This document shows, piece by piece, positions 9,079 through 59,400 of a stretch of DNA of 64,000 bases (the stretch's first letter is position 1; the number at the start of each line of letters is the position of its first letter). A model generated the notes under the pieces. It saw only the letters and a list, made by a program, of their open reading frames with translations, had not been told where the DNA came from and searched no databases. The stretch is taken from assembly GCA_016748015.1 (NCBI GenBank), contig JAAOMT010000762.1:124001-188000 (forward strand), given 5' to 3'. The DNA comes from Geosiphon pyriformis uo1. Its lineage: Eukaryota; Fungi; Glomeromycota. Position numbers and translations under genes: made by a program.

Positions 9079-9765
9079 TGTTAGGGATTGGAGTAATAAG
9101 CTAACAGATAGCAAGGAAGAACAGAATTGTAGGATAATAAAAGGAATCAAAGGAAATTCAACTTCAAAGAGCAAATTGAATGAGTATGGATTTAATGTGT
9201 GAGATCAGTCTTATAAAATATTTCAGTTGCTATACTTTTCAAAAGATAACCAGAGAATTTAAAAGTAGAGGGATAGTTTGTATTGTCAACAAATGATCAC
9301 ACACTGGTATAATTCTATGTCTCATATTGGTGCTCTTAGAATTCAATATCAGGTATTAGATGTACTCTTTAGTCACATTTTATTCAATAATCTTTAAATG
9401 CTGTAATTACATGTTTCAGAAAAAGAATAAAAAATAACCAACAAGTAATCTTTTATTCCAAGATGTTCAGATACTTGAAAGTAGGAAAAAGGAAATTAGT
9501 GATAAGAGAATGATTGAGATAAAAGTTGTTATTTTATTTTTTTTAATTCTTATATACTTTTTTACAGCTAAGAGATTCATTACTTATATAGCTATTAAAA
9601 GTGGTCAATAATCAGGTTAACAACAAGGTCAATGTTCATGTTAATAATCAGATTAACAGTCAGGTCATTGATCAGATCAATGATTACTATTTAAAAATAG
9701 AGTGGCTAATTATATAACATCTGTGGCTAATACATGTAATAATTAATAAAAAGTATAAGTTTCAA
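9079..9765 (-). repeat. 3' LTR of B2; its first ~8 nt and the PPT appear deleted
   Basis: Aligns with 45534-46253; diverges just before the terminal TCATAACA. Confidence 0.88.
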
Positions 9766-10550
9766 AGAGATTGAGTTCTAGCAAAATCATGTTATTTATA
9801 GTGTAATCTATTTGAAGAGTTTTATTTAACTCAAAGCTAACTAGTTTATTGAAGTCTTTTATAGATAAAGTATATAATACTTGAAGTAAAATGAGTTTTG
9901 TATCCAAGAGACCAAATCTTTGTATTAGAGTTTTGGTTCTTTTAGCAATAGTTAAAACTCTTAGAACATTTAACTATATAATGTCCAAAATTTCTGCCTG
10001 TATTTCTGAAGTTGTTTTCTTCATGAGTTTTATGTTCTCTATGATTTTTCCAAGGTGACTATAAAGTTCTAATTGCCTTCCATATAACAGATTTTTGTCT
10101 ATGGGCAAGATTTCTTGGATTGTTTTTCCAATTGTGCTAGAAGATAAGAGTATAGTAGCTAATATATTTTTCAACAAATATTTATCCATTTTGCTACCAA
10201 TTTTTTCTCTTTTGGTAGTGGTTTTCTTTGATCTAATAACAGTATATGTTCTATTATTATCAGTTATAGTAGTGGTTAGTCATATCTTTGTAATTTAGGT
10301 TATTGGGTGAGTTGGCTTTATGAAAAAGTCATGCTTTTTTGAGTGTAGCTAAACTAATAAAAGACCAGTGTAACTACATGTTAACAAAAAAAAAAATTAT
10401 CAGTTATAGTGATTTGTTTTCTAATGGTCAAAGTAGTATTTGGATAGTTTTTGATTCAATACTCATGGAGAGTATAGAAGGTGTTTTGAATGTTTTAATC
10501 CAAAAAATAATTATTCATGTTGATTGAAGATACTTTTGTTTTGGGAATAG
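9763..10550 (-). pseudogene. ORF3 of family B (post-integrase helical protein), interrupted by a 125-bp retrocopy
   Basis: ORF 9974-10189 continues in frame past one TAG: LNVLRVLTIAKRTKTLIQRFG...KDFNKL...DFARTQSL*. 5' boundary approximate. Confidence 0.65.
10271..10395 (+). mobile_element. 5'-truncated (3'UTR-only) copy of the ORF1-only retroposon, with poly(A)
   Basis: Matches 31727-31853 and the reverse complement of 5892-6010; perfect 15-bp TSD ATTATCAGTTATAGT at 10256-10270 and 10396-10410. Confidence 0.92.
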
Positions 10551-21929: not shown

Positions 21930-22580
21930 TTATCTCCTTCTTTTTAATATTGAGCTCTGTCAAAATTTTTATTTTGAATTATGTCAAATACTTCTTTTTC
22001 AAGTAGTGCCTGTTCTATCCTACTCTTTATTTCTTCAATCTGTGAATTATTTATTTTTTCCCATTGGTTGATAATTATTGTTTTCATATTAGAGTGTAAC
22101 AATACTTCTGAGTAGTTTTGAAATATAGTGTGTAGTTAATAAATGATCTTGATATGTAATATTAAGTTTTTTTTCTTTCCAATAATATCTTCAATGTTCC
22201 AGATTATCTCTTGGTTAAAGATTCTCTTAAATTTGTCAAGATATAACTTCTGAATATCTACTTTTTGTCCCAGTTAATAGTAGCAATATGGTATTGAAAA
22301 TTGGTCTATCTATCTGTTCCAATTTTTTTTTACCAGTTCTTCTGTTGGAATCATAATGATTATCTTTCTAAAAGTGTTCTTTACTTTCTCTACTATTTTA
22401 TTTAACCAGTTTGTTAATTGTTTCTGTAGTTGCTAGTATGGCACACTTTTCCCTTTTTGTTTGGTGTTTTGATAACAAATTGTTTGGTTGTTAATAATAA
22501 TTTTCATGTTTATTTGCTGTTGACTTAAAGCTTGAAACAATTGTTGAGCTAAAGTGTGAATATGGTCTGGTATTTCCATT
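21930..22580 (-). pseudogene. ORF3 of A1
   Basis: MEIPDHIHTLAQQLFQALSQQQ...LHTIFQNYSEVLLHSNMKTIIINQWEKINNSQIEEIK; homologous to 40689-41330. Confidence 0.75.
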
Positions 22581-31161: not shown

Positions 31162-32224
31162 TCATGTTGCCTACTGTTTCTTCTGCTCCCAATTTTGCTG
31201 TTGAATCTAGGTTGGCTTTTCTGAAATTTCACTTTAGTGAACTGTCTGTTTTAATAAAGTCCTTGGTTGAGTCTGTTAATACTTTGGTTGTATTGGTTAC
31301 CAAATTGCTATTTACTCCACTTGCCATGGATGTGTTAATTAAAGAATGTGTGAATGAATTGGCTAAGCAGAATAAAGGCTTGGCTGCTATTGCCATTGTG
31401 ATGCAAAAAAGAATAACATGTCTTGAGAAAAAATGTGAACAGACCTGCTTAGAAGATAGATCAGATAATGACAACATAGTTGATAATAATGATAATGATG
31501 ATAGAGATTTTTCAGTTTATAATAATACTTTTAATATTATAATGCACTTATGGGAAGATCAGCCTTCTGAAATCAAATCCAGTTTTGACCAGACTGCTAA
31601 GTGAATAAATAATATGATTAAAAATAGTTATGAGCTTGTTAGCATTATGGGTAAGATGTATAAATTAAATATGTTTAATATATTAGGTAGCAAAAGTAGT
31701 ACTAGTGTGTAGTTAGAGCTTTCTATTTGTGGTTAGCTGTATCTTGTGATTTGTATTATTAGGTGAGCTGGCTTTATAAAAATGGTATATTACTATGAAC
31801 ATAACTAATAAACAACCAGTGTGGCTACATGTTAACAAAAAAAAAAAAAAAAAGTCGATTTTGGAGAAATCCTTGATAAATTTGCAATAGTAAGAAGCCA
31901 AACCAAGAAAAAAACATAGTTCAAGAATATTCATTAGTTGTCTAATGTTTTGAACTTTTTTAACTTTAGCTGAATCAGAGAAGATTTTATCTTTTGTAAT
32001 AAAATGACCAAAAAACTGGATGAATTGGCATCCAAAAAAAGATTTGATTGGGTTGATCTTAAGATCAGCATTTCTAAGCAGATCAAAAACCTTCTGCAAA
32101 TGTTCAAGGTGTTCATCTCAGGTTTTTGAGTAGACTATTATGTCATCTAAATAGACCAGAACAAAGTTTTTTTTTACTGATTCAAATACTTTGTCTATTA
32201 GGTATTAAAAGATAGGAGAAGCAT

Positions 32225-33062
32225 TGTTACTCATAGAATATAGGAGATATATTAGCATATAAATTAGCCAATCAAAAGTAGCCATAGTAAATGTGGAATT
32301 CCAAGATTCCTTTTAAAAGAATTGCAGGATTCTAAAAATTTCAAGATTCTTATACAAGGAATCACAGAATTCCAGAATTCCAGAATTCTTCTCAAAGGAA
32401 TCACAGAATTCCAGGAATTTTAGGATTTCTGGTGTAAAAAATTGAAGAATTAAGGAATCTCAATTATGTATATATATCAGTAGTATTAGAAGAAGAAAAG
32501 ACAGATTTTTTAGTTTAAATTTGATCTTAGCAATCTTCTATATCACAAATATCAATATAAATAATTATTTACTATATCAAATTCACTCTTTATTATTAAC
32601 ACTTCATGTTGATAGTAATTAATACTTGACCACACTAGAACAATAGCTCTTGATCATGGCTATTGATGAGATACTAACCTTTAACACCTTGGCTTATTTC
32701 TTTATTTTCTTTTATTTCTTTATTTTTTTTTGTTATTTCTTTTGTTGTGTACTAATTAATTAAAAGATTAAAGCACTGAGTTATTGATGTTAAAGATTGC
32801 CTGGTAAAAGACCCCTGCAAGTGGGTAGAACACATAAAAAAATTACAGATTACTTATCAGAGGAGTACCAGCCATCAAGCTGAAGAAAGAAATTGACAGA
32901 ATTGCAATTTTGAAAAGCTATAGATAAACAACTATTGAATCTTTGTTCATTATACAAAGAACTTAACCAAAACCTTCAGATTACTATTATTGCAAATAGC
33001 TTCTGAGCACCAAGTTATTGGTTTGTTATTTGATTAAAGACTCCAAATAATCACTTGTAATA
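32225..33062 (+). repeat. 5' LTR of A2, with a GGAATTCCAGGATTC-type U3 array at about 32295-32460
   Basis: TGTTAC start; aligns with 41332-42213. Confidence 0.92.
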
Positions 33063-36000
33063 TTTAGTGCTCCTTGTGAAGTATAATCCTACAGAGAACC
33101 AGCACTCACAAAAATCATCCAAAAGTGGCAAAATCAGAAATTATAAGAGCAAACCATTTAGGATTCACCAAATCTTTGTTTTAACAGTATAGCTAACAGT
33201 TAGAATTAAACAATAACCATTTCCCAGTAGAATTAGCTTTCAACTTTTACGTCAATGATAAAATCACAAACTGCTTAGGAGGAACAGTTAATATTAAATC
33301 CACAAGAGAAAATTTTTATATAGAATTGTTTCAACATACCAGCTTACCAAGAAATTACAGTTTCACATTAATCATCAAGGAAATCAATCAAACCATTGAA
33401 AAATACACCCAACAACAATTCTCTATTACTTATGCAGACAAAGGCAAAAGAAAATTGCAAACACCAGCAGTAACATCCAAAAAGATACAACCACCCACTT
33501 AGAAGAAGACCAGAGTTGAATCACCAACCAATCCATTATATCATTATACATTAGGAAGTGCCATCAATATCTTCTTAGCAGACGTGTTCACATCAAACAT
33601 GACATCAACCTTTGGACAATTCCCATTTCAAAGTAAACAAAAAAGAACAGAGTTATTAGAACCATATAGTAAATATTTTGAAAGATTTAAATTGCGATCA
33701 CCAATGCCATCAAAATTTCAATCACTACCATCTCAACCAGATTTTAGAACTGCAAGTCTGTGGGAAATAACAGAATCAGAAGAAAAAAAAAGTGAGGATT
33801 AAGAATTTAATTACCAAAACCTGATTTTAGAAAATCCAAAAGTTGAAACTCCAAATATTTAAACCCAGCAAATGCAAAACAATCCAAACCCCAAAACAAT
33901 TAATTAGCAAAACTTACCTCCAGTAATTGTCATTGACCAGCCACCAATTGAACTGATTATTAAGCCAATTCAATAGCAGCCACTTCAGCAACTTATTCAA
34001 CAACTGCTTCAACCACCACAACAACAACCAATTACACAAATAGCATATACACCTATTGCAAAGCTAGAAAAATTTTCTGGTAAAGAAGACAATGCCCAAA
34101 CATAGATCAACAATATCGCCAAAGCCATTACTGTTAATAACTAAGATAATACCAGAATTCTTCAAGCAATTCCCTATTTTCTTCAGGATGCTGTCAACTC
34201 ATAATATTATAGCTTAGCTTAGAAACTTCAAACATTTGATGTATTTAAATTGGAATTTTTAAGATATTTTAGTAATAACAACAGCATTAATTGCTTGGCC
34301 AACATCTTTACCACTATCAAACAGGGAGATACTGAAGCAGTTACCACTTACTTGGGATGTTTCCATTAAAATCTATGCCAAATACAAGCCATCAATGCCA
34401 ATTATTTCACCACAGCCCAGATCCTAAATCAGTTTATTTGTGGATTACACAGTAGCATTCTGCAATGCATATGGCCACTACATCCAGTCAACTTACAAGA
34501 TACAGTCACATGTGTCAAAGATTTTGAATTAGCTGAATTAAAAATTAATTATGCCCAAGCTGTAAATCTAGTAATGAATAGATCATCTGACTTGGATTTC
34601 AAACTAAAGCAATTCAGTAATTCAATCAATCAGAAAATCAAGGAATACTTAGTTGACAATCGTGCAATTTATCAACCACCACAATGATGTAATAATTTAA
34701 AAAATACAAATTGTTTCCAAAATCAGTCATGTTCACTATTATCATCCAATCAGCCATGGCAGCCAGAGATGCATGTCTGCCACCACTGTGGTAAACAAGA
34801 CCATATTCAAGCTAACTGCCATTTTTATAGTAACATATGATCGGAAAATCAATACCAAAACTCTGTTTGCAGCATTTAAACTTCACACTATTACTCAAAT
34901 CAAAACCAATATCAGCCCACTTACCTGCTAATAACACAGTAATCAATATATCAACCATCTGTATATCAACCTCCAGTTTATCAACCACAGCCATTAGTAA
35001 TTTATCAACCTCTACAACTTCAAACACTGCTTTAAAACTCCACCCAGATGACATCAGGAAACTCTAGATCCAAAGTCACCCAAAACTGGAGATTGGTAAT
35101 GGTGGTTTACCAACTGATCTCCAGTTCACCAAATCATCCATCAGGATTATGCCAGTAGAATTCGGGAGCTGAGTACACCCAAAACCCAAATTCTCAGAAC
35201 TATTTAAGTCTTCTGATAACCACAAAAGATGTCCCATCTAACAAACAGAAAACCCATCACATGCCAACACCTACTAACAATATTCTACCAGCTACCATTA
35301 CTGAAAATGAATTATTGAATGCCATCTTCCTGTTTGAACTTGAGGAATCATTAGCCACACCATTATTTAGTGGAGCTGCTCTCGAAGAAAAACCTATTAT
35401 TATCATATATACTAATGCCAAAGTTGATGATCACCCTATTAAACTGATTCTAGACAGTAGATCAGCTAGCAGTATCATCACAAGACAACTTATGAACCAA
35501 TTAGGTTGCCAAGTTGATCAAGCTGCTAGCACATGAATCATCACTGCTAATGGAGTGACCAAAACTCTGATCAGCGAGATTGATGACTTCTTTATAGAAG
35601 TCAATAGCATTATTATGCCAATCAAGGTATTAGTCATAGAAGCCACCCAATACCAAGCACTTATTGACAATGACTGGCTGTTCAAAACCAATACAATGCT
35701 TGATTGGAACATACAGGAGCTTTAATTTAGCCAGAATGGTTGACACACACATGTTTCAGCCATGTATAATCATTTTAAGACCACCAACATGTCAGCACCA
35801 CTCATTGAGTTTGAGAAAAAAGAGAAGAAACCTACCTGAGAAGCCTATTAAATATTATAGACTAAAAACAACCACAACAAGTTATCACCAATACCTTTCT
35901 GGAATGACAACAGAAAAGAAAAACAAAAGAAAAAACTTACCTGGAATGCAGACCAAGTCTGGAGAACTGACAATGATCTAAACAAATCATCAACATGAGA

Positions 36001-36954
36001 ATGGAAAGAGACAGACAAGAGAAAAAGGAAAAAACAACATCCACCAGCACCATCACTTATAATTTTCACACCTACACTATACCACAATGATTCACTTATC
36101 ACCAACCAAAGCTCATATGCATTGATTATGGCAAGAAATTGTTATCAATGGGTGCATATTGTAGTGATGACAAGGAATACCAGATGGCAACTAAGTTTTA
36201 TTGCCGCCCATGTCTCATTGAACACTTTGGAAGACCAAAGTGAGTTGAAAAATGGAATAAGTCATGCTTGGCTTGTGGAAAAACTCTCCTTGATAAAAGA
36301 ATATGGAATGACATTTCTGGGAGAGAAGAAACATACAATGAATTGTGTCAATACATGATCCTAATAAGTGACTGAATAAGAAAAAGAACACCAATAAAAG
36401 CAGTCTGAAGGAGAACAGTAAAATAGTTAGATGGATGTTCACATAATAATGACAAAATTTGGTGAATAACTCTCACCAAAATCAAAAGAGCATTATCAGA
36501 ACAAATAAGGATGATCAAAAATAACCTTTCAGAGCCCATAAAACTTGACTGGGACCCAGAACCAGTCATAAATCTCTTAGATTCAGAACAATTTCATGAA
36601 CACTACCAGAAATTAGCATCCACTAGAGAAAAACAAGAGCAACAGTTGGAAGAAATAAACACAAGACTATGTGATCATTGTTTGATCCCATGTGACTTCC
36701 AATATTATAATAAGTGTAACCTCATTTACAATCCACCACCACACATGATCTACACACTCTTGGAAGAGAAAGAACCAATCAGCAGCTGTGCATTAGAATT
36801 GGAATCAATTTTCAATTCCAATTCAAACTCTAACAATGATGATGACAAAAATAATGGTTCCAGCTTTGTTTAAAATGACAACAAAAATTATGATGATTTA
36901 AACTCCAATTTAAACCCCAAAACATACATTGCACTTCCTGATCTCACCAAAAAA

Positions 36955-37395
36955 CAGAAACTTAAATAGTTCAGCAATAATAATGAAGGTATTATGCCAG
37001 AATGTGCACATGATACTAATGTAGGATTTAATCTAAGATATTTGGGAAAAGATCCCATCAAATTGGAACTCCATTTGCACACCTGCATTGATCTCAAAAT
37101 AGCACTGGAAATTCTAGCAACAACAATGGTTCAGTTAGCATCTAGAAGTAACTTAGCCAAAAAAGGAATCAACATTAGAGAAAGAATAATTGACACAGGA
37201 TATATAGAAAATATTATTGCTATACTACAAAATGACTCAAAAAAGGCATATATCATAGATTCAAATGAAGAGATAGCACAGGCAATATTCTTGCCTCTGG
37301 TTAAAATAGCTTAATTAGTATTAGTAGAAAACCGAGAAGAATTAGGGATAACAGCAAGAGGGATACAAAAATTCAGATCCACAAGTAGAATAGAT
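36955..37395 (+). pseudogene. dUTPase domain of A2 pol
   Basis: NVGFNL, LASRSNLAKKG, IIDTGY, IAQAIF, ARGIQKFRST. Confidence 0.92.
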
Positions 37396-40300
37396 GTACT
37401 AGTTAATATAGCAAAAGAAAAAATTGTTGACAAGAGAGAAATTATCTCCACCCATCAACCAATTTCTATTCCATTATATGACCAGTACATGGTAGTTATA
37501 GAGAGAAAAGTAAAGAATCAGGTTCAGATTTTTAAGACAGAAGCAACCCTTTGTAAATCAAGAGAGATTGGATTAGTCAATCTATACATACTGGTTAAAA
37601 ATCACAGTCACATCAAAATTCTCATTTACAACAACATGAGAAATGTCATCAAAATACTAGAAAAAACAACCATTAGATACTTAACCACTGAAATTGAAAA
37701 CCAACTGCCAAACACCATTTCAAACTTTCCACAACTGTGTAGATATGTAGATATCACATCTCAAACCATATATGGATGAGAAGAATATTATTTGCTCTAA
37801 CCAGAACAATTAGAACAGATAAACTTGGGAAATCTAGACCCACTACAATGTATGTAATTCAAGATATTACTCAACAACTTCAATAATATCTTTGCCAGTG
37901 AAAACAAATTTGGCAGAACTGACATTATTTAGCATCAGATTAAGATGAGAGATGCAATGTCAATTAAACAAAGAGCATACAGAGTACTACCAGCCAGCCA
38001 TGAAATCATTCGTCAAAAAATCAATCAGATGCTTGACAATGGGCTAATTCAGTTATTAATAAGCCCATGATCATCACCAATGGTATTAGTCTATAAGAAG
38101 AATGAAAAAATCTGCTTTTGTGTAGATTACTGGAAACTGAATGAAATAACAAAAGAAGATAGTTATCCAACTCCAAAGATCCAAGAACTTTTTGATGTTT
38201 TTGGAGGAAAAAAATGGTTCTCAACATTAGACTTAGACAGTGGTTATTAACAAGTAGCTATAAATCTGGAAGATAAAAAGAAAACAGCATTCACAACATA
38301 AGAAGGAAATTTCGAATTTAAAGTCATGCCATTTGGCTTGATGAATGCTCTAGCCACTTTCCAGCAGCTTATAAAAATTGTTTATACAGGACTGCTATGG
38401 AAATCAGTAGTTGTATATCTAGACAATACTAATATGTTCTCAAAAACATTTAATGATTATCTGCATTATCTCTAACAAGTATTTGAAAGACTCAGACAAG
38501 CAAGATTAAAATTGAATGCAAATAAGTGTTTCTTTGACAAGATGGAACTCAAGTTTTTGGAACATGTAGTGAGCAAAAACAGTATTAAAACAAATTCAGA
38601 TAAGATTGAGATTGTTAAAAACTTTCCAATACCAAATAATCTCACAGAATTAAGAGTATTCTTGGGATTTACTGGATACTATTGCCACTTTATCAAAGAC
38701 TTTTCTAAAATAGCTTAACTATTACACCAACTCCAAACAAAAAACACCAAATATGAATGAACTAAAACTCAACAAGAAGCTTTTGATACATTAAAAAGAA
38801 AGCTTATTCAAGTTCTAGTACTGATCTATCCAGATTATAGCAAGCCATTCATAATCACAACTAATGCATCTGGTTAAACATTGGGAACAGTACTATCACA
38901 GAAAGGATTAGATGAAAGAGAACATCCAATAGCTTACACTAGTAGAAGCTTAAGTCCAGCTAAAAAGAACTATAGAACTCCAACACTGGAACACTTAGCT
39001 ATCTATTAGGTTGTTATCAAATGAAAAGAATACTTGAGTTAAAAGTTTGATGTGTATACTGATTACAAAGGATTAACTTCAATCTAGAAACAAGAATTTG
39101 GAGACGATTGCCATGCCAAATGAAAGATAAAACTTTTATCATTTAATTATACAGTACATTATAAAAAATGAAAATGAAAATGAAAATGCTAATGGATTGG
39201 TGCAAATGAGACAAATCTAAAAACATTTCAACCCAAAAATATAACAAAAAATAAATATACAAAAATATCAACAACTCCAACATTATATAAATACCAAATT
39301 GTTCAAGAAGAAATTATCTCAAAAAAAACAAAGTAACATAAAACAGCAATCAAAATATTTTATCAACCATCAAAATATACTTTACCAGAAAAACAAAAGA
39401 AATCCAGATCAACCAACCAGAGTAATTACAGAATTAGAGAAAGAGACAATATTATTTAACATGCACTCAGATCCAACAGCAGAATATATTTATAAAGAAG
39501 CAACCATAGAAAGAACCAGAAAAAAATACTATTGGCCATCAATGTATCTAGACATTATTTAATATTTTCAAAGTTGTGATGCTTGTCAAAAAAGAGGTGA
39601 AACAAAACTCAGTGAACCATTAAGACCAATTAAAGTGGGACAACTATTCAATCACATTGGAATTAACTTAGTCAGACCATTAACTATTACCAGCAAAGGC
39701 AACAGATATATTGCAGTAGCCATGGACTATCTCACAAAATAGCCAGAAGCAAAAGCTATTCAAAGAGCAGATACAAAATCCATTGCCAAATTTGGCCATC
39801 AAGATTTAATTTGTCAACATAGATGTCTAAAAGAACTACTATTAGATCAAGAAACTCACTTTGTGAATAAAACATTGGCAGAATTAAGTTAAAGATTTGG
39901 GATAAAAAGACCATTATCATTATCATACTATTCACAAACAAATGGGTTAGTTAAAAAGTTTAACAGAACATTGTGTGAAGCCATTGCCAAAATCAGCCAA
40001 GAAAATCAGGATGAATAAAATTTGATTATATCATCAGTATTATTTGTTTATTGGACAATGAAGCAAGACACTACACAAGCAACACTATTTGAATTGGTAT
40101 ATGGTAGAACAGCAACATTACCAGTTAAGATAGAAGTTAAAACATATTCAATAGAACCAATAACAGAAGAAAATTTTCAAAGAACATTATTGAGAAAAAC
40201 ATATGACTTAATAGAGACACTAGAAAACAAATGACAAAAAGCAGTTGATAACATCTAAAAGTCACAAGAAAAACAAAAAAAAAGACATGATAACCAACTA

Positions 40301-40688
40301 TCAAAGAAACCAGTTGAATTCAAGATTGGAGACAAAGTACTTTTACATTGTATTAAAGCAGAAAAACAATGGAGTGGGAAATTTGACCCCAAATAGGATG
40401 GACCATTTCACATAAAAGAAATTCTTAGAAATAGAGCTTTTAAATTAAGGTAGAACAACAAAATCTTAACCAAAGCAGTACATGGTGATCAACTAAAACA
40501 ATATCACTATATAGTATCATCATCTACCAGTAATATTTCACAATTAGGAGTACAGAGAATACTAATCAAACCAGATGAGATTTCACGAAATCTAAAACCA
40601 ATTATAATCATTAAACCAAACACATAAAATCAAACAACTAAAAGAGTATATAAAAACACAGTATATGTGATAAAAAACAGCAGAAAAA

Positions 40689-41330
40689 TGGAGATTACTA
40701 ATAGCATTCACTCACTAGCACAACAACTTTTTTAACTGATCCAACAACAAGAAATGAAAATTACAATCAACCAACAAACTATCAGATACACAAACACCAG
40801 AAAAGAATTATGAGATAAAATACAGAGAAAAACAGAAAACACTGTGTACAAAATAATCATAAAAGTGAAATTGGCAATAGAAACACAACCAAAAATGACC
40901 CAATATTAAGAGTTGACTATAGAAACTTGAAATTGGTGAATACAGCAATTTCCAAAAAACTTTTGTTAATTTTATTTGGAACAACACTTGAACATTCAAA
41001 GCTTATATACAAATAAAACAAAATGATTATTTGATACAACAGTACTGCAACAACTGGAACAATTTGTGAAGAAAAACAATTTGACCACACAAGCAAAAGC
41101 CATTTATTGGCTACACACTGGATTTCAAGATCAATCAGAAATCTTACTCAATCCAGAAATGAACTCTATTATCATTAACCAAATAGGAAAAATAATCAAT
41201 GTTTAATTTGAAGAATTACAGAACAAGATAGCACAAGTAATTCTTAAAAAAGAAGTTCAAAAAATACTCAAAGATAGAAAATTAGAATTAAGAGATCTCG
41301 ATAGAGCTTAATATTAAAGAAAAAAAAATA
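40689..41330 (+). pseudogene. ORF3 of A2 (about 210 codons)
   Basis: MEITNSIHSLAQQLF...AKAIYWLHTGFQDQSEILLNPEMNSIIINQIGKII..FEELQNKIAQVIL; lies between the integrase end and the PPT. Confidence 0.78.
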
Positions 41331-41331
41331 A

Positions 41332-42213
41332 TGTTACTCATAGAATATAAAAGATATATTAGCATATAAATTAGCCAATCAGAAGTAGCTATAGTAAATA
41401 TGGAATTCCAGGATTCCTTTCAAAGGAATTGCAGAATTTCAGGAATTTTAGGATTCTCATACAAGGAATTGCAGAATTCCAGAATTCCAGGATTCTTTTC
41501 AAAGACATCACAGAATTCCAGAAATTCCAAGAATTCCAGGATTCCTGGTGTAAAAAATTGAGGAATTGAGGAATTTCAATTATGTATATATATCAGTAGT
41601 ATTAGAAAAAGAAAAAACAGACCTCTCAGTTTAAATTTGATTTTAGCAATCTTCCACATTACAAATATCAAAATAAATAATTATTTACTATATCAAATTC
41701 ATTCTTCACTATCAACACTTTATGTTAATAGTAATTAATACTTGACCACACTGGAACAATAGCTCTTGATCATGGCTATTGACAGGATACTAATCTTTAG
41801 CACCTTGGCTTATTTTTTTATTTTTTTTTATTTTTTTATTTTCTTTTTTTGTTATTTCTTTTGTTGTGTATTAATTAATTAAAAGATTAAAGCATTGAGT
41901 TATTGACATTAAGAATTGCCTGGTAAAAAACCCTTGCAAGTGGGTAAAGCACGTAAAAAAATTATGGATTACTTATCAAAAGAGTACTGGCCATCAAGCT
42001 AAAGAAAAAAATTGACAAAATTGCGATTCTGGGAAGCTACAGATAAACAATTATTGAATTTCTGTTTATTATACAAAGAACTCAACCAAAACCTTCAGAT
42101 AACAATATCTTTAGATAACAATACCTTCAAATTATCATCATTGCAAATAGCTTTTGAGCACCAAGTTATGAGTTTGTTATTTGATTGGCAACTCTAAATA
42201 ATCATTTATAACA
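41332..42213 (+). repeat. 3' LTR of A2
   Basis: TGTTAC...ATAACA; direct repeat of 32225-33062. Confidence 0.93.
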
Positions 42214-45200
42214 ACATGACTGTAAATTTATAAGTACCATACTTGGTAATAAAAGCAGTTTTTTTTTTGCTTTCTGGATCCATCTTTACTTGCCAGAATT
42301 CAGCAGTTAAGTTAATAGTTGAGAAGAAAGCAGCACTATTGAATTTATTTAGCATTGCATCAATTTTGAGAAGTGGGTATATGTCTCTTATAGTGATGAC
42401 ATTTAATTGACAGTAATCAACACAAAAGTGTAGGATTTCATCTTTCTTGGATACCACTACAACTGAAAAAGCCCATTTACTTTTGGTTTCTTATATAAAT
42501 CCAAGATCTTTTATCTGGTTTATTTTTTTCTTGATAAATTCATCATTGTGTTGATTAGATTAATAAAGATTCAAATAGATAAGATGAGTTTTTTTTGTGG
42601 TAATAGTGTATTGTATCACATGGGTTCATCCAGGGATATCACTTTCTTTTGAGATAACTGGGCTATTTCTAGCCAACAGATTTTTAATGTCCACTTTTCT
42701 TTCTTTAGAAAAAGGTTCTTTTTGTTCTACAACTAGTGATTGGATTTTAGGTGGTTTATTTTCAAAGAACTTTTGTATTTCTTTTAGTTTTTCTCTGGGT
42801 ATCAAACTAATTGGCTTCCAATCTTTGTAATAGATTAGACAGGAATTGTATTTATTACTAAGAGAATACAAAGATTTATTACACTAGCATCTGGCACAAG
42901 GATCATGCCACCAATAACTATATTTTGCTTTCTTGCCAGGTTTTCTATCAAAAGTTTTTCTGAGGATATCATAGTAGGGCCAGCAGATCAGCTTGTCATT
43001 TACCATAATTTCTTCTTTATCTGCTTTGACATTATCTAATGGCTTGCCATTGCTGGTAAAGATAGTATAAGCAAATTCAGCAGTTTTTTTTGTTTTTTTT
43101 GTTTATTTTCTTCATTATTTTCTTCATTATTTGACTCATCTGATTGCTTTTCTTCTTGGTTTTGTTTGGATATTAGAGAAGTTGTTCAATAACAACACTT
43201 AACCATGATGAGTTTTTCACCACATTTGATGATTAGTTCACAAAGTTCATAATTAAGCAAGACTTTTGCTTTTTTGAGTTATTTATTGCCAACAATTATG
43301 GTGTATTTTTTTGCTTCAGATACTTCCAATGCTAATGTTATTAATTTAAACAGGAACAGCTTTGGTTATGCCCAGACTTTTTTTTTTGTTACCATGTACA
43401 TTGGTCATTAGTCTTGTGGATGATTCATCAATTTTTCTGCCAATTGCTTCTAAAAAGTGTTTAGCAATAATGCTAACAGATGATTTACTGTCCAGAATCA
43501 AATCAATAAAATAACCTGCCACTTGGGCTTTACAAATAAGAGGAGTAATATTGCTGTTGTCAGCAAGTTCAGCTTGGTGTGAGTGCTTGTTGGTCTTTGG
43601 TGTCTTCTTCTTTGGAATCAATAATTTGTAAAAATCTTTTCTAAACTGTAAATGAATTATTAATTGGCCAAAAGTGATATGTGTTAAGGTTTCCATAAAA
43701 TCTTTTACAACAGAATAGGATCCAGATTTTTGTACAATTTCTGGGGGTTCTAACTTTAAAAGATTCTTAAAAACTTTAGCCTTTAATGGCTTATTGTTAT
43801 CAGCAATAGAAGTTAAGGCTTTGTTAGAATCTAGAACAAAATCAACCTTGGTTTTCTTTTTTTTCTTGTTAAGTCAGAAGTGTTAGTTTATCCATATTAT
43901 GATCATTATTAGTTAGGTTAAAGGCATAAAAGGGGTTTTCTTCTGGTTGGTTTGCACTCTTACTCTTTGGAGGTGTGTCTACCAGTTTAAAGATTGATAA
44001 ACAGTAGCTTCAACTAGGAGATTCTCTCCAAAGAAATTGATGTTAGCATAATTGGGTCTTTGATTGAAGATATTGTTGTTGATAGTTCTGTTGTTTTGAT
44101 TATCATTGTTACAATCTCTTGAGAAATGTTCAGTTAATTCACAGTAGTAGCATACAGATAGACTATAATTTTGCTGTCTTTGATAAGAGGGCTGCTGAAG
44201 CTAATTGAAACATGGTTCAAATCTGGGTCTTTGTGATTGTTGATTTTCTCTAACTGCTTGGGCTAAGGATTCCAGTAACTGGACAAGATTGGCTGTAAGT
44301 CTATTTATTAACTGTTCATTTGGGTTTTGAGTTTGAACAGCAAAAAATGCAGCAGCCATTTGTGGAGTAGGAGCAAAAATTGGAAGTGTAAATCTTAGGT
44401 GCATTCTTTGATTGTCTTCTATTTTCTGGGCAAGTTCAATGACCATATCTATTGTGGAATTATTTTTCAATGCCAAGAGAGGTTAAAGAGCATAGAAAAG
44501 ATCAGTTCTCAATTTTTTTGTAAAGGAATGAATCTTTTGCTTTTCTGTCCAGTTTCTTCTAAAATTTACTTACTTGATTAATTTTCTGATTGCTTTGGCA
44601 TACTCAGTTACAACTTTACCAGGACTTTGAGTTCTTCTTTTTAATTCCATATGTTATTTGAATATCAAGATTAAAGTTCTAAATTTCATTTTAAACCAGG
44701 TAGTAAAAGAGTTGTTATTTTCTCCAGCATTTGCCAGTGTCTATTTAATAATTCTTTGCTGAACATTGGCATTGGTTTTTTGTAAGAACCAAGTAGCAGA
44801 AAAGCCTTGGAAATAGCCACCAATAATTTGGAATTTATATTCATTATCATATTGGTTGGCTATGGCAGCTTTTTCAAAGTTATTCAATCATTTGATTAAA
44901 TTTTGTACATTACTTTTGAATAAAGATAGTGGGGTGTTATTTTTTTGCTTTAAAGCAGTTTATATGCACTGAAGGGCGATCAGAATGTTTTGTTGTATAG
45001 GATCATTAGCCATTGGTTCAGAAGTAGCTGTTTTTGTGAAATGTTCTGATTTACTTAAGAAGAAATCAAAAACAAGAGCAGTTTAATAGCTTTCTTTTTC
45101 TGTTTTAAAGAAGGTTTCAGATAGCTGATAAGCAGCAATCCAGATGTGAATTTGGTAATTCAAGTATTCAGAATCAGAGGGCTGTTGTTCAAAAGTTGTG

Positions 45201-48909: not shown

Positions 48910-51642
48910 TTAAACTCGATCGCTTGAATTGCTGAAAAAATAAGATAAATCTGTTTTCCTTTTTTTTCGACTATTTACCAGACTCCTTACCTCTCGATCT
49001 TTGGTACGTTCTTCCTTTTGAAGCTCACGCGCAAAATGAAAATCTTGATGTTCACTCAAATTCCGAGAATAAATTAATTGATTACATTTTGGACATGAAA
49101 TGGTTTCTGATGAAAGTGAGTGGGTAGCCCTTTCTTGAATTATCTCCGGAGTTTTGTTATTATTATTTTTACCATGATTGCCGTTTTCTGATCTTCCAAA
49201 AAATTGAAGAATTCCTGTGACCGGAGGATTTGAAAATGAGGCTTTTGATGATTTGTTTTTCTTAGGAGCCTCAGTAACTTGGCTAACAATCGGTGTGATG
49301 GTTTTCGAGCTTAACTTTTCCTCTCCCAAAGGACTAATGTTAAACTCTTCTCGGTCAGCAAGCAGTGGATTGCGGATAGTACTTTTCGCTTGCAAAAAGG
49401 GATGAGACTCTGTCTGTTGATGTTTCACGGCCGAAGAAAGCAACCCTTCTGCTGACACATCATCAAACTTTTTAATAACTCTCATACTCTTTTCGGGGAG
49501 ATCACTTTCTGAATTATGAGTTGAAGCATTCGAAATGTCAGATTTTCTATGCTCCGGGGACTTTAAAAAGAATTTTGCAATATCCACGCTTCCCACACTG
49601 TCATCTTTGACTAAGCCTGTTGCCGCGGCTGAAATGTTGGTGCATGGAAATGCGTAATCAGAACTCTTGAACAATTCCAAAATTTTGTCTGATAAAATAT
49701 CAGGTGACTTTAGACTACCACGTCGTGGGAAAGGAGCTGATTTAGAACGTGGGCTTTGATGGGAGACACATTTAAAATGCATCTAATAATTAATGGTACC
49801 AAAACGATCGAGTAATCTGAATGAATGAGATAACTTTATCCTTAGCTATAAAACTCACCACCAAAGTTCTTGGCCACCTTTGATTCAACTCATAATCATC
49901 GATAACTCGAGTGTATAATTCTGTGGCCAAGATATTCATCCAATGTTCCACATTTGCTAATGTCTTGATTGGAGGCCGAAAGGATTTAGAAGCCATCATG
50001 GATTTCGTAGTATTTCTTTGAACAACTATAAATAAAGTCACATACTCTCGGTTAATTTGAATAACAATATTCACAAACATCTATGTGCAGACCTCCTTCA
50101 GTATCTATTCCACGGCTGATATTAAAAAGCCAAACTCCTGTTGACATTCCAAATTTTGCTTGGAGTTCTTCTACAGTAAATTTCCTTCAAATTTACCAGA
50201 TTTTTCGTATTGGCAAACTCAAATAAACTTTACTGGCCATTATAAATACCGAAACTTAGAAATAATAATTTGAAATACCACAATTCCCCAGCGGTTTCAA
50301 CTTTCAATTCGTTGCCAATCTCTGATCCCAATTTTCCACCAAGATTACGAATTTTTTGAAACGGTAATTCCCGCATGAAATTCATAGCTTCAGTCCCTTT
50401 AAGCACAGTCTGCATAACAGAAAAGTTTTGTACCCTTAATAATTCACATATTGGAATATCTACCCTTACCTGTTTATTTGGTTTGTTTAATGCTGAACAA
50501 AGTTTCGCTAGCGTTTTATTGTGGGCAATTCCTAGGAATACATATGTTGAGCAAATAATGCTGGATATGATACAGATCAGTGACAAATTACCAGCAGAAC
50601 AGGTGTATCCCAATTCCATAAGCACGGTTTCTCTTATTTCTGAAGCCAATTCAGCAGCTATGGCAAGCTGCCAATCATTCCATGTATTTTCTTCAAAAAA
50701 AAAAGACAACCATATTTTAATTCATCATTTCAGTTAAACCTGCATTTTATTTCTATTGACTTACTTTCTTTATCAGCATCAACATCTTCATTCCTAGTAT
50801 TTGACCATATAATCCCTAAACCATTCCAATCAATCTCCGGAGCTTGACTAGATTCATTCAGTTCATGAAATCGTTTCACCAATCTTTCGTTTACAAAGTC
50901 TGTAACATCCATATATGCTTCATCAACACTTGCTCGCTGAATCAACGTACAATATCTTTGTAAAATTTGGAAAATCTGAGAGCTTGCACGACGATAAGTA
51001 TCAAGTGAAACTTTGTGAGTAGCATAATGTGGATTCAAATGATATTGTGGTTCTATCTCTCCATTAACATAAGTAGCCACATGTACAAGTTGCAGTTCTA
51101 AAATTTTTGAAAGGCTAGGTTATCATCGGGGAGAAAGCAAAACTATCTGAAAGTATGGGATGTGAGATAAAGGCCAAACTATACCGGGACATTTTGACCG
51201 CGCTTCGGTAACTGTACAATGTCTTTGGATTCCAGATTCACGTGCTGCATAGTTCACTGGTATTTGGAAAGTTTAGACTGATTATAGATAATTACATTTC
51301 TGAAATCTTATTATTAGAAATTCACCTGCAATCAATCCTTGCCACTGTTGAACCGCTAAAGGAACATTAGAAGGAATTCCCAAGCGGACCTGTTCTGTTT
51401 AATTGATGGGTATGATTTGAAAAACTATACTAAGATTGAAAGACATGAATCGATCTAACATCTGATGCACTTACCAACCTGACAATAAAAACAGTCTTTG
51501 TGACAATAAATGAGTGTTGAATATTCTTGTTCTTCCAACTCACTGAAAAAGTCAAGAAAAGTGACCGAAACAAACCAAGGTCAAGATGAATAATAACTTT
51601 TTGCCTGCGAATAGAGGAGTGAAGGAGAGGAACTTGTGACAT
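48910..51642 (-). CDS. RAD30: DNA polymerase eta (Y-family translesion polymerase), multi-exon
   Basis: Spliced IIHLDL-DCFYCQV-EQVRLG..PLAVQQWQGLIA-VNYAAR; KVSLDTYRRAS; RASVDEAYMD; CSAGIAHNKTLAKL; KIRNLGGKLG; KSMMASKSF; C-terminal UBZ CPKC..EHQDFHFA, basic NLS and PIP-like DLSYFF; short GT-AG introns. Confidence 0.95.
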
Positions 51643-54824: not shown

Positions 54825-55797
54825 TATTACCAAAGATTTTTGGTTTCTTTTCTTGACTGTTGTTAATGTTTGTCTGTTGCTATTTTCACATTTTCTGGAA
54901 GCAGTTAAACCTTCAATAACTGAATTTATCTTTAAATTATCTCCTATAATTTAAACTGCTGGACTTATAAGTAAAATGGCCAATTCTGTGCCAATTACTT
55001 TGTGTAGTTATATTGTAGTAAATATTAACTTTTTTCCAGGAATTGCTTATCTGGAAGTTTACTAAAAATGTGTAGTTACTTTGCTGTGAAAGTCAACTCT
55101 TCTACAGGAATCTCATTTGTAGGCTACCCTAATAATTATGATAAGAAAAGAATGGAAAAATAAAAAAAATATAAAAGAAATAGAATTCTGTCAAGGAAAA
55201 TGTTTTCTATTTAAGCCTGGAGTTATTAACAGTTTACTGAAATTGGTAGCTAATCAATTTCGAAATGTTAGTTGTGTTTAAGAGAATTTTAAGTATAATG
55301 ATTTAAGAATTTGGTTTTCGAATATTTAATTTTTATTTGAATATGTAAAAGATAATTTGTTTTAATTAAGATATCTAAAGTGAGACACTATGTTAAGATA
55401 CTATGAGAAGATATATTTTTTTAATGAAAAAAGCTCTTCTTTTATACAACTTGTTGTAGTACTAGTCTTTGAACTTGCACTTTTTTTTTTGCTACAATTT
55501 TGGTAAACTAAAGATATATTTTGGTAAATTACAAGTTATTTCACTGAATTATTGATTATTTTAGCCAATTTTCATTAATTTCGGCGAATTTTGACTATAT
55601 TAAATGGTTCAGAGTATTGTGTAATTTGATCATCTTAATTTCTATGGTACAGATTGGATTATTAATTAAGTAATAATATTTAATAATTTGATTAAATAAT
55701 AAGTGGTAATCGAAATAATAATAATATATGCTAATTAATAATAAGAATTATAAGGGTAATTTCATGCTAATTATTAGCTAAAATTCTACTGGTAACA
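54825..55797 (-). repeat. 3' LTR of C
   Basis: Aligns with 63731-64000; termini T(G)TTACCAG...CTGGTAACA. Confidence 0.9.
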
Positions 55798-55809
55798 TAA
55801 TTTTTTCTT

Positions 55810-56480
55810 TAAGACTGAGCTCTATCAAAGTCCAAGCACTATCTGTGATGTCAAGATAGTGGTCCAAAATAATTGAAGTGATTTGGTTTGAAAATTGTTG
55901 AAATTTCAGTTCTGTGAGCTTTCTAATGTATTGAATCTTCATTGGATAAAATATTGGATTTTGTAGGATGTTTTTACAAGTATTAAATAACTTATAGAGT
56001 CTAAATACTGCTCTAAGTTTGTAATGAGTGTTTGTTGATCCAGCTGTTGTCTTGAATTCATTGTGAATTTGTTTTTATATAGTCTCAAAAGTAATGTTGA
56101 TTGCTTCAAGTTCCAGTTTTTGTTCATAAAGTGTTTTTTCAATATGAAAATATCTATATATAAAGGTATGTTTATTGTTTTGTTCATTAAGAAATAATAG
56201 AAGTTTTTGTTGAATAATGGCATTTGGTGGAATGTCAATAGGAGTAATTAAAAGGTTTTCTTTTAATGCTTGCTTCAAAAGTTCTGGTAATTGGATTCCA
56301 GAGTGATCTTTTGTTTTTCTTCTATAGGGGTAATAATTTTGAGAATTATTTACTACTAGTGTTGTGGTTTCTTTCTGAGTATAATTAATTTAACTTCCAT
56401 TAATTATTATAGATAAGTCAGAAAGTGTTTTCAAGGCTAACATTAATTTTTGAAATATTTGTTGAATATTTTGGAGAATA
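55810..56480 (-). pseudogene. ORF3 of family C
   Basis: ORF 56075-56278 continues past one TAA: HYKLRAVFRLYKLFNTCKNILQNPIFYPMKIQYIRKLTELKFQQF; 5' end approximate. Confidence 0.68.
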
Positions 56481-59400
56481 ATTATGATAAAAAAAATTGA
56501 CTAATTAATAAAGAAAATTTAAAAAAGAATAAAGAAAATTATTTTCGAGTATAGGATTTTTATTTGTTTTTGGGTTTGAATGTTTTTTGTAATTATTTTA
56601 CTATTTTTGTTTCTGTTTTTGTGTGTTTTTAAAAAGATTATTATAAAAATATTTTTAAATTAAGTGCTCAAGTTTTGTTGTTGTTTTATTATAATTATTG
56701 GTTCTAAATTTCGGAAAATATCTTCAGGATTAATTAAAGGGGAATGTGTACCAATTTGTGGAATTAATGATTCAGAATTGTTTCTGAAATAATAGTATTT
56801 CAATCTATCTCCATGTGCAACTTTTACTAGTACTTTGTTATCAAGTCTTAACTTGTATGATCCATTGCCTAGAATTTTGTAAATATAAAATGGTCTATCT
56901 TATTTATGTTCAAATTTTTCACTCCATTGTTTTTTAGTCTTAGTTCTGTGTAAGAGAACTTTATTTTCCACTTTAAATTCATTGATAACTGGTGGCAATT
57001 TGTTGTCATATCTTTCTTTTGGTTGGGCTTGAAAGTGTTTAATATGAGTAGCTGCTATGTGTTTTTTTCTTTCCAATATACTAAGAAGAGTGTAGGCTCT
57101 TTTTTGAAGTGTTTTTTGAAAGTTTTTTGAAAGTTTTCTTCATTGGTTGGTTGTACTGAGTATGTTTCCACTGTGAAATTAATTGGTAATGTTGCTGTCC
57201 TTTCATAAGTAAGATTAAATGATATGTGTTTTGTAGTATCTTGTTTTAGTGTTTTGTATATTAATAATACTGATGGAATAAAGATATCCCATTCCTGCTC
57301 AAAATCTGTTGAGATTTTGGCTAAAGATTTACATAATGTTTTGTTAAAACATTCTACAAGTTCATTTGTTTGAGGGTAATAAGGTGATGATAGGGGTCTT
57401 TTAACATTGAATCATTCACAAATTTCTTGTATCAAGTTGTTCACAAAATGTGTTTTTTGATCAGATAAAAGTTCAATTGGACATCTATGTTTACAAATAA
57501 TGTCTTCATAGATAAAATTTGTTACTGATTTTGCATTTGCTCTTTGGATGGCTCTAACTTCAGGCCATTTGGTAAGATAATCTACTGCTATTGCAATATA
57601 ACAATTTCTTTGGGTTGTGATAGATAATGGTCTGACTAAATTAATTCCAAATCTGTCAAAAAATTTTTCAATTTTGATTGGATTTAATGGTTCTGTGGGG
57701 CAAGTTCTTCTTCTTTTTTGACAACTATTACAAGATTCTATATATTGTCAAATGTCTTTTTACATATGAAGCCAAAAATAATGTTCAAAAGTTCTTTGAA
57801 TTGTTCTATCTCTTCCCAAATGTGCTGAAAATGGATCTGTGTACATGTTGTATAGAATTGTTTCTTTTTTATTTTCCTGTACTAATTTGAGTGGTTGGTT
57901 TGGATTTTTGCGATTTTTGTAATACATTTTGTTGTAGTATATAAAATATTGTTTAGATTGGTATTGTAATCAATTTTTTTTACTTGAAGACCAATTTTCT
58001 GGCATGGTAAGAGTCTTCAAATAGTTTTTAAGGTTGTTGTAATTTCTGGAATCTATTGTTGTTTTGTTGTTTTGTTGGTAATAGTAAGTTGTAGTGGATT
58101 TGTTGATGGTGTTAATCTTGTCTTATTCTTGAGAAGCTATTAACATTGGTGTGTAATTTTCCTGGTTTGTGGTGTACAATATATTTGTTGTCTACTAAGA
58201 AATTATTTCATCATAACTGTTTGGCATTTTGTTCAGTTTTCTTTTTATTGAGCCATTTGAAACCAATATTGTCAATTATAATGTCAAATTTTTTTCTATT
58301 CTTTAGATATTACTGAAAGTGTTTAAGAGCCCAAATAACTGCAGCAGCTTCTAATTCAGTTTAGCCATAGTTGAGTTCTGTAGGCTTAAGTGTTCTATTG
58401 ACATAAGCAATAACTTGTTCCTGGCCATTTTCATCTAATTGTGATAGAATGGCACCAAATACTATGTGTAAAACATCAGTGGTTAGTTAAAACCATTTGT
58501 TAAAGTCTGCATAAGCAAGAACTAGGGCTGTTGTCAATTTTGTTTTGAGAGTTTCAAAGGCTTTCTGCTATTCTTCAGTCCATTGATATGGCATGTTTTT
58601 GTTGATAAGATAATTGAGTGGTTTGGCAATTTCTGAGAATTCTTTGATGAATTTTCAATAGTAAGAGATTAATTCTACAAATTCTTGTAGTTCTGTGGTA
58701 TTTTTGAGAGTTTGAAAGTTTTTGATAGCACTAATTATTCCAAGATTTGGTTTGACTTCATCTTTGCTAACAATGTGTCCAAAAAAGATTAAACTTGTTT
58801 TTCTAAAGTGACACTTCTCAATATTCAATTTCAATTCTGCTTTTCATAATCATTGAAAAATTTCTTGTACACATCAGTATCATCAAGATAAACAACTACT
58901 GACTGCCATAAAAATCCTTCATATACAACATCTATGAGTCACTAGAATGTTGCTGGTGTATTGCAGAGTTTAAAAGGCATAATATTGAACTCATAATTTT
59001 TTTCTTGGATAGTAAATGCAGTTTTGGGTCGATCTTTTGGGTCCATTTTGACTTGTCAATATCTATTTTTCAAGTCTAAAGTTAAAAAAAACTTGGCTTT
59101 TTCTAGAACATTTAGCATGTCATTAATTCTTGAAAGAAGATAGACATCTTCAATTGTTATGTTGTTGAGCTGACAATAATCTACACAGAATCTGATTTTT
59201 TTGTTTTTCTTTTTAACAAAAACTACTGGTAAGGCCCAAAGACTTCTTGATGGTTGAATCAATCTATTATTGAGCATTCTTTGGATCTTTTCTTTGATAA
59301 ATTAGTGGCTAGCAGATAAAACTCAATAGGCTTGTTGTCATTTTGGTGGAGCATCTCTTGTATGGATCTGATGTTAAACAATGTCAGTTTTTCTCAGGTT

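What the first reader, a model, noticed from the sequence alone, without database searches (positions are those of the whole stretch)
40689..41330. Conserved non-env third ORF after integrase in three Gypsy families
Seen: a ~210-260 codon sense ORF between integrase and PPT in A1, A2, B2 and C. A1 and A2 are clearly homologous yet more diverged than their pol. A loose C-terminal pattern is shared: A2 AIYWLHTGF..IL.NP..IINQIGKI...FEEL; C AVFRLYKLF..ILQNP..IQYIRKL...FQQF; B IAKRTKTLI..LQVLYTLSIKDFNKL. No signal peptide or transmembrane stretch is evident, so it is not a typical Env. Inference: an ancient helical accessory protein, possibly for targeting, silencing suppression or movement between nuclei in coenocytic hyphae. 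With the Cys-rich domain and dUTPase it defines a retrovirus-like accessory-gene architecture that I do not recognise as described.
Basis: partly seen in the sequence, partly recalled or inferred. Interest (0 to 1): 0.75.

Follow-up and report, generated by a model that had tools for sequence, protein, structure and literature searches.

The report
Third gene in fungal Gypsy retrotransposons
A dead copy of a fungal jumping gene carries, after its integrase, the remains of a real third gene whose intact relatives encode a small soluble protein matching no known family or solved structure, and which likely acts as a DNA-binding helper that keeps its own element active.

Summary
The third gene is real, but no window copy is open. 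A2 (40688-41311) has 8 internal stops, A1 4, C 2, and B 3 plus an insertion. Stop-free full-length relatives are annotated in Geosiphon pyriformis (A 1 of 59, C 71 of 120, B 35 of 116 listed hits). A metagenome contig shows an open 230-codon version after an integrase. The A and C proteins are homologous over their length (HHalign 94%, E 1.6e-7). They belong to a family of several divergent subfamilies (24-42% identity), and A1 versus A2 shows purifying selection (dN/dS about 0.27). B's ORF3 sits in the same place, but homology was not detected. There is no transmembrane stretch, so this is not Env. AlphaFold gives a confident helical core with no match among solved or viral structures. Weak, non-significant leads point to DUF1016_N/DUF3102-type helix-turn-helix domains. 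Best reading (0.4): a nuclear DNA-binding regulator of its own element. Function and expression are untested. Extra ORF3s are a known category, but I found no description of this family. Sequence look-ups in the scan's notes found no look-alike; word look-ups showed other fungal ORF3 notes from other genomes.

The parts
40688..41311 (+). ORF3 of element A2, pseudogene with 8 internal stops; some intact relatives start 10 codons further upstream and end 2 codons further down
   Evidence: 61% identical over 209 columns to stop-free P0127
39200..40627 (+). A2 integrase region (zinc finger, rve core, SH3), broken by stops; start approximate, stop at 40625-40627
   Evidence: Pfam Integrase_H2C2 9e-13, rve 9e-5, SH3_Tf2-1 2e-3
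41316..41331 (+). decayed polypurine tract of A2, preceded by a GAGCTCAAT-like DNA motif shared with A1, B, C and L001
   Evidence: read from sequence
41332..42213 (+). A2 3' LTR (TGTTAC...TAACA)
   Evidence: 88% identical to the 5' LTR, nearly all transitions
32225..33062 (+). A2 5' LTR, followed by a PBS-like motif at about 33065-33073
33100..39190 (+). A2 gag, protease, Cys-rich stretch, dUTPase, RT and RNase H, all decayed; limits approximate
   Evidence: three-frame translation read by eye; RT/RH tblastn 51% to L001; weak Pfam dUTPase hit (E 9e-4) in the matching region of A1
21944..22579 (-). ORF3 of element A1, a different subfamily; 4 internal stops
55778..56485 (-). ORF3 of element C; 2 internal stops, first start codon decayed (next ATG at 56443); ends about 20 nt inside the 3' LTR
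9743..10518 (-). ORF3 of element B, split by a 134-nt insertion (10262-10395) and lacking the PPT codons; homology to A and C not shown

Best explanation
ORF3 is a genuine third protein gene of a Gypsy lineage, dead in this window but intact in other copies, and its product is likely a soluble nuclear DNA-binding regulator that would recognise its own element and keep it transcribed or unsilenced. SHOWN: position and own start codon after the integrase stop; homology of A, C, further Geosiphon subfamilies and metagenome proteins; purifying selection; no membrane anchor. PREDICTED: an N-terminal helix plus beta-hairpin, a basic disordered linker, and a compact helical core (residues about 80-195) with a helix-turn-helix-like stretch (helix, G-K-x-N turn, helix bearing conserved R, Y/H and F). 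INFERRED, untested: translation by reinitiation or from a subgenomic RNA; nuclear import through the basic linker; binding to LTR or internal DNA of its own family; transactivation or protection from host cytosine methylation, as VANC proteins do for VANDAL transposons.
For: Homology: A versus C HHalign probability 93.9, E 1.6e-7, 187 columns; direct BLASTP links among the subfamily representatives, with only B left out. Conserved core columns in 9 of 9 representatives: Y92, N131, F146, L153, I181; in 7-8 of 9: Y94, G98, G128, K129, R141, G167. In family C the core (156-210) is most conserved (88-91%) and the linker least (69%). Selection. Open DNA copy after an integrase in L001. AlphaFold2 pLDDT about 90 over residues 81-190. 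Helix-turn-helix leads: Pfam DUF1016_N is the most frequent weak hit (5 of 58 members, best E 0.015, below cut-off); Atlas neighbours of the core include DUF6192, DUF3102, Plasmid_parti_N and HTH_3 at 0.85-0.91; HHalign with 10 DUF1016 proteins falls in the register seen by eye. Silencing context: CpG observed/expected is 0.07-0.10 in these elements; TE mCG methylation is reported in Rhizophagus (PMC8647823, passages).
Against: The DUF1016_N profile match is not significant: score 17.0, P 0.11, while 60 column-shuffled controls reached 18.5. The top Atlas neighbour in both searches is a closterovirus coat cluster, not a helix-turn-helix family. The two metagenome proteins are acidic (pI 5.4-5.9), and R141 is not invariant. 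There are no expression, localisation or binding data. That ORF3 stays with the LTR while the integrase is exchanged is also explained by simple linkage.
Confidence: 0.4

Rival explanations
1. ORF3 is a protein-protein adaptor of the particle or pre-integration complex, for nuclear import, target-site tethering or particle assembly, with no sequence-specific nucleic-acid binding.
For: Soluble and helical with long amphipathic helices; most conserved residues are hydrophobic or structural; it lies next to an integrase that is itself a separate ORF; PMC7264820 suggests such roles for extra ORFs.
Against: A1 and A2 have a near-identical integrase but deeply diverged ORF3s, so ORF3 does not track the integrase sequence; the weak sequence leads point to nucleic-acid-binding domains.
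Confidence: 0.25
2. ORF3 is an RNA-binding protein, possibly derived from a filamentous RNA virus coat protein, that coats, exports or shields the element's RNA from RNA interference.
For: Closter_coat is the first Atlas neighbour in both searches (0.91 and 0.93); similar size and all-helical make-up; an earlier unchecked note reports RNA-virus DNA inside a retrotransposon of this genome (e1-10417419).
Against: Shared features are 138 and 149 of 256, under the 170 typical of true members, and only one cluster; Closter_coat is not among the 25 Pfam families shown for the 58 members; the only coat protein in the Foldseek viral list has E 0.93 and TM 0.17.
Confidence: 0.2
3. ORF3 is an Env-like or movement protein that carries particles across membranes or between nuclei.
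For: It occupies the env position, and the host lineage is coenocytic (established knowledge).
Against: Maximum 19-residue Kyte-Doolittle mean is 0.27-1.44 in 9 of 9 proteins, under the usual 1.6; 0-2 cysteines; only about 210-240 aa.
Confidence: 0.05
4. The region is not a protein gene under selection but a by-product of AT-rich 3' untranslated DNA and gene-caller noise.
For: All window copies are broken, and A2's frame has 8 stops against 10 in another sense frame; many database models are mis-spliced or chimeric; the last codons of C, B and L001 are dictated by the PPT.
Against: Full-length homology kept at 24-42% identity across subfamilies and two metagenome sources; dN/dS 0.27; codon-position bias p=0.001; triplet indels; confident fold.
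Confidence: 0.03

Closest known systems
Sense additional ORFs between pol and 3' LTR of plant LTR retrotransposons (aORF-3S; Athila, Bagy2) (PMC7264820; parts 1-2 of 3 read, which hold the whole main text)
   Same: Same position and orientation; present in many copies; function unresolved.
   Different: Those are described as env-like, some with transmembrane domains and splicing. This protein has no hydrophobic segment and no detected similarity to any Pfam family.
ORF3s of bdelloid rotifer LTR retrotransposons (PMC5408684; abstract and outline seen)
   Same: Non-Env ORF3s in dUTPase-bearing Gypsy-like lineages, shared between families.
   Different: Theirs are a fusion glycoprotein, a GDSL esterase, a DEDDy exonuclease or small membrane proteins. 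This one has no enzyme family match.
Fungal Gypsy elements with dUTPase and 'additional ORF of unknown function', e.g. PosPlaTy3-5 (PMC2864245; passages)
   Same: dUTPase between protease and RT; extra ORFs noted in a figure legend.
   Different: Basidiomycete elements; I did not see the sequence of their added ORF and could not compare it. Supplements were not opened.
VANC21/VANC6 of Arabidopsis VANDAL DNA transposons (PMC6719617; passages)
   Same: Functional analogue under the best explanation: a transposon-encoded accessory protein, family-specific, acting against DNA methylation.
   Different: Different transposon class and kingdom; no sequence link found; activity untested here.
DUF1016_N (PF17761; YhcG N-terminus), DUF3102 and Plasmid_parti_N helical domains
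   Same: Motif order Y-x-[IL]-G helix, second helix, G-K turn, helix with R..Y..F.
   Different: Match not significant; bacterial; ORF3 has an extra N-terminal helix-hairpin and no nuclease. Their helix-turn-helix nature is recalled, not shown by a call.
3' accessory genes of complex retroviruses that overlap the PPT and U3 (Nef, foamy virus Tas/Bel; recalled, no call)
   Same: 3' position; the C, B and L001 frames run through the PPT into the LTR.
   Different: No env in these elements and no sequence similarity detected.

Membership tests
Ty3/Gypsy LTR retrotransposon (carrier element) | LTRs with TG...CA ends, PBS and PPT | tested here: met
Ty3/Gypsy LTR retrotransposon (carrier element) | order protease, RT, RNase H, integrase | tested here: met
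   protease identified by eye only
Sense additional ORF (aORF-3S) class | sense ORF between pol and 3' LTR | tested here: met
   4 of 4 window elements whose 3' end is in view, and L001
Sense additional ORF (aORF-3S) class | present in most copies of the family and conserved like other element genes | tested here: inconclusive
   198, 59 and 116 related proteins and dN/dS 0.27, but no genome was held to count copies with and without it
Env / env-like protein | transmembrane anchor | tested here: not met
   hydropathy maximum 0.27-1.44 in 9 of 9 proteins
Env / env-like protein | N-terminal signal peptide | tested here: not met
   no hydrophobic N-terminal stretch by hydropathy; no dedicated predictor was run
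Env / env-like protein | expression from a spliced RNA | not testable with these tools
   no reads could be laid on the region
DUF1016_N / DUF3102-type domain | profile match above family cut-off | tested here: not met
   best E 0.015, under the gathering score
DUF1016_N / DUF3102-type domain | remote homology by profile-profile or fold | tested here: inconclusive
   HHalign P 0.11, within shuffled range but in the expected register, using only 10 DUF1016 sequences; the core was not folded alone
Closterovirus coat protein | sequence or fold similarity | tested here: inconclusive
   weak Atlas lead only
VANC-type anti-silencing factor | family-specific loss of DNA methylation on expression | not testable with these tools
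   needs an experiment
The A/C ORF3 family, for B's ORF3 | detectable profile similarity | tested here: not met
   HHalign probability 0.2% or less; HMM scores no better than shuffles; B's alignment has very low diversity, so remote homology stays open

The most novel reading that the evidence does not exclude
A whole lineage of Gypsy elements of early-diverging mycorrhizal-type fungi, family B included, has three cistrons (gag-pol, stand-alone integrase, ORF3). ORF3 is an ancient, fast-diverging, sequence-specific LTR-binding factor built on a bacterial-type DUF1016/DUF3102 helix-turn-helix that switches on or unmethylates its own family. It would be a retrotransposon counterpart of VANC or foamy-virus Tas, and could help explain the LTR expansion to about 41% of the Geosiphon genome.
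Probability: 0.2. Interest if true: 0.8.

Novelty: new variant of a known kind. Interest (0 to 1): 0.5.

Why it matters
LTR elements cover 41.2% of the G. pyriformis genome (PMC11952901, passage). Hundreds of its 'hypothetical proteins' are this transposon gene or B's ORF3, which matters for annotation. The family gives a small, soluble, foldable protein with intact natural copies, so the open question of what non-Env ORF3s of retrotransposons do can be tested directly. If it is a family-specific activator or anti-silencer, it would be a rare counter-defence factor in a fungal LTR retrotransposon.

Full report
Setting. The window is a stack of nested, decayed retroelements. Element A2 spans 32225-42213 on the + strand. 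Its LTRs are 88% identical and differ almost only by transitions. It has a PBS-like motif, gag, protease, a Cys-rich stretch, dUTPase, RT, RNase H and an integrase with zinc finger, rve core and SH3. No genome is held. All named homologues listed for the three ORF3s are from Geosiphon pyriformis (120 of 120 listed, 59 of 59 and 116 of 116), at up to 85% identity. I infer that the window is from that fungus or a close relative.

Observation. A methionine-initiated sense frame starts 60 nt after the integrase stop of A2 (40688-41311). Equivalent frames exist in A1 (22579-21944), C (56485-55778) and B (10518-9743). None is open: they carry 8, 4, 2 and 3 internal stops, and B has a 134-nt insertion. 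In A2 the frame has 8 stops against 20 and 10 in the other sense frames, so A2 alone would not prove a gene.

The gene is real. Searches returned 59 (A), 198 (C, 120 listed) and 116 (B) related proteins. Models that align full length with at most 6 gap positions number 1 of 59 for A (P0127, a cluster of 6 sequences), 71 of 120 for C and 35 of 116 for B. Many of the rest are mis-spliced around stops. I could not see the DNA behind these database models. DNA evidence comes from metagenome contig L001, which reads RT-RNase H, stop, integrase-SH3 (one internal stop), a 316-nt spacer, then an open 230-codon ORF3. Its integrase is 52-56% identical to those of A1, A2 and C.

Selection. A1 versus A2 ORF3 gives 45% amino-acid identity, pN/pS 0.50 (bootstrap 0.40-0.63) and dN/dS 0.27, with dS near saturation and a protein-guided alignment. 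Shifted-frame controls gave 0.61 and 1.45. A DNA-only alignment with a high gap penalty has 4 of 4 indels in multiples of three. A lower penalty gave several non-triplet gaps, so this point depends on the setting. Transversions mark divergence from before insertion, since decay afterwards is nearly all transitions. They are rarer at second than at third codon positions (27/190 versus 48/170, p=0.001). The stricter four-fold-site test was not significant (p=0.14). ORF3 is more tolerant than the gag core (second-position transversions 27/190 versus 4/188). Its excess divergence over the integrase partly reflects mosaicism: four-fold transversions are 2/69 in integrase, 11/64 in RT, 9/29 in gag and 3/9 in ORF3. 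A1 and A2 therefore probably share a recently exchanged integrase while keeping older ORF3, gag and LTRs (inference).

One family or three? A and C align over 187 columns (HHalign 93.9%, E 1.6e-7). An A+C profile against 1.84 billion representatives gave 116 hits. Of 10 looked up, 8 are further G. pyriformis models, including two more subfamilies, and 2 are metagenome proteins. The divergent subfamily representatives share 24-42% identity. The tree splits them into an A/A1/D/G group and a C plus metagenome group (14 rows, midpoint root, B left out). B is not detected by any test: HHalign probability was 0.2% or less and HMM scores were within shuffles. B does share position, size, an N-terminal helix, hairpin and basic linker order in a low-confidence model, and a by-eye resemblance of the core, and its integrase is the most distant (38-43%). 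Remote homology is possible but not shown. No named homologue outside Geosiphon was seen among those checked. In the Atlas, 25 of 30 hits for P0337 were clusters without a Pfam family, the best mostly Mucoromycota (0.90), which is a lead only.

The 3' end. Family A stops before the PPT. C, intact B proteins and L001 read through it into the LTR. A GAGCTCAAT-like motif, the purine tract and TGTTA are shared as DNA and read in different frames, so the last dozen residues are a cis-element footprint and not protein homology.

Protein anatomy. Nine intact or near-intact proteins have no hydrophobic segment (19-residue maximum 0.27-1.44) and 0-2 cysteines. The Geosiphon proteins are basic (pI 8.5-9.7) and the two metagenome ones acidic. 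AlphaFold2 on a 58-row alignment gives mean pLDDT 77.8 and pTM 0.67: helix 2-20, a beta-hairpin at 23-36, a disordered basic linker at 40-49, and a confident helical core at about 81-190. The conserved pattern in the core is Y-x-Y-x-x-[IL]-G, a helix, G-K-x-N, a helix with A-x-x-R-L-[YH]-x-x-F, then LL and N-x-x-G-x-x-T. No Pfam family passes its cut-off.

Mechanism. The most coherent leads are to small helical domains of the DUF1016_N/DUF3102/Plasmid_parti_N type, which I recall as helix-turn-helix-like. A direct test against 10 fetched DUF1016 proteins aligned the expected motifs but scored within the shuffled range (17.0 against a maximum of 18.5). The top Atlas neighbour was instead a closterovirus coat cluster, below the Atlas's own reliability marks. 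The elements are strongly CpG-depleted (observed/expected 0.07-0.10), which fits methylation-driven silencing as reported for TEs of Rhizophagus (PMC8647823, passages). LTR-LTR transitions are not confined to surviving CpG contexts. I commit to a nuclear DNA-binding self-regulator (0.4), ahead of a particle or integration-complex adaptor (0.25), an RNA-binding or coat-derived protein (0.2), Env or movement protein (0.05) and no gene (0.03). How ORF3 is expressed is unknown.

Comparison and novelty. Extra sense ORFs after pol are a known category in plants (PMC7264820, main text read), rotifers (PMC5408684, abstract and outline) and fungi (PMC2864245, passages, which also describe a dUTPase between protease and RT). 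Passages of a survey of fungal LTR elements (PMC3248453) and of a Glomeromycotina TE survey (PMC11952901) did not mention such an ORF. PMC5006619 (passages) was irrelevant. Seven searches gave no description of this family; supplements and repeat databases were not seen. The scan's notes hold no look-alike by sequence or by my last word search, but they list ORF3 findings from other fungal genomes whose proteins I could not compare. Verdict: a real, apparently undescribed accessory protein family with no known fold match, shared by at least families A and C. It is a new variant of a known kind; interest 0.5.

Noticed in passing
L001 772-1566; window 39150-39260, 24030-24140, 58050-58160, 11880-11990: The integrase is separated from RNase H by a stop. 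In L001 it is an in-frame TAA followed by a new ATG, which makes these elements appear to have three cistrons. Agrees with earlier notes on this genome.
   Followed up: partly
window 39025-40600 versus 22700-24300: A1 and A2 share a nearly identical integrase (1-2% transversions) while gag, LTR and ORF3 differ by 4-18% transversions: a probable recombination patch.
   Followed up: partly
window 41303-41337; 21925-21960; 55790-55822; 9765-9780; L001 3091-3125: A GAGCTCAAT-like DNA motif just upstream of the PPT is kept in A1, A2, B, C and L001 whatever the reading frame; a candidate cis-element for plus-strand priming.
   Followed up: partly
window 32221-32224 and 42214-42217: A2 flanks GCAT and ACAT look like a decayed 4-bp target duplication, compatible with the NCGN note e1-10582392.
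   Followed up: no
window 10262-10395: A 134-nt insertion in B's ORF3 resembles the end of another repeat at 5892-6010 and 31721-31847.
   Followed up: no
window 9079-46253: The B pieces (5' half 46253-42214, RT pieces near 32111 and 12390, 3' half to 9079) look like one element split by A2, A1 and a GC-rich non-LTR-like element at about 12500-19300; B's PPT is deleted in this copy.
   Followed up: no
window 48910-50721 (-): Host gene pieces with IMS, Pol eta/Rev1 HhH and UBZ zinc-finger matches (Y-family polymerase) amid the repeats.
   Followed up: no
window 36150-36720 (+): Cys-rich stretch between protease and dUTPase in A2, seen by eye; not searched on its own.
   Followed up: no
window 56500-56540 (-): A pyrimidine-rich tract ending in AG lies just upstream of C's ORF3 start, like a splice acceptor; not evident in A2 or L001.
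   Followed up: no
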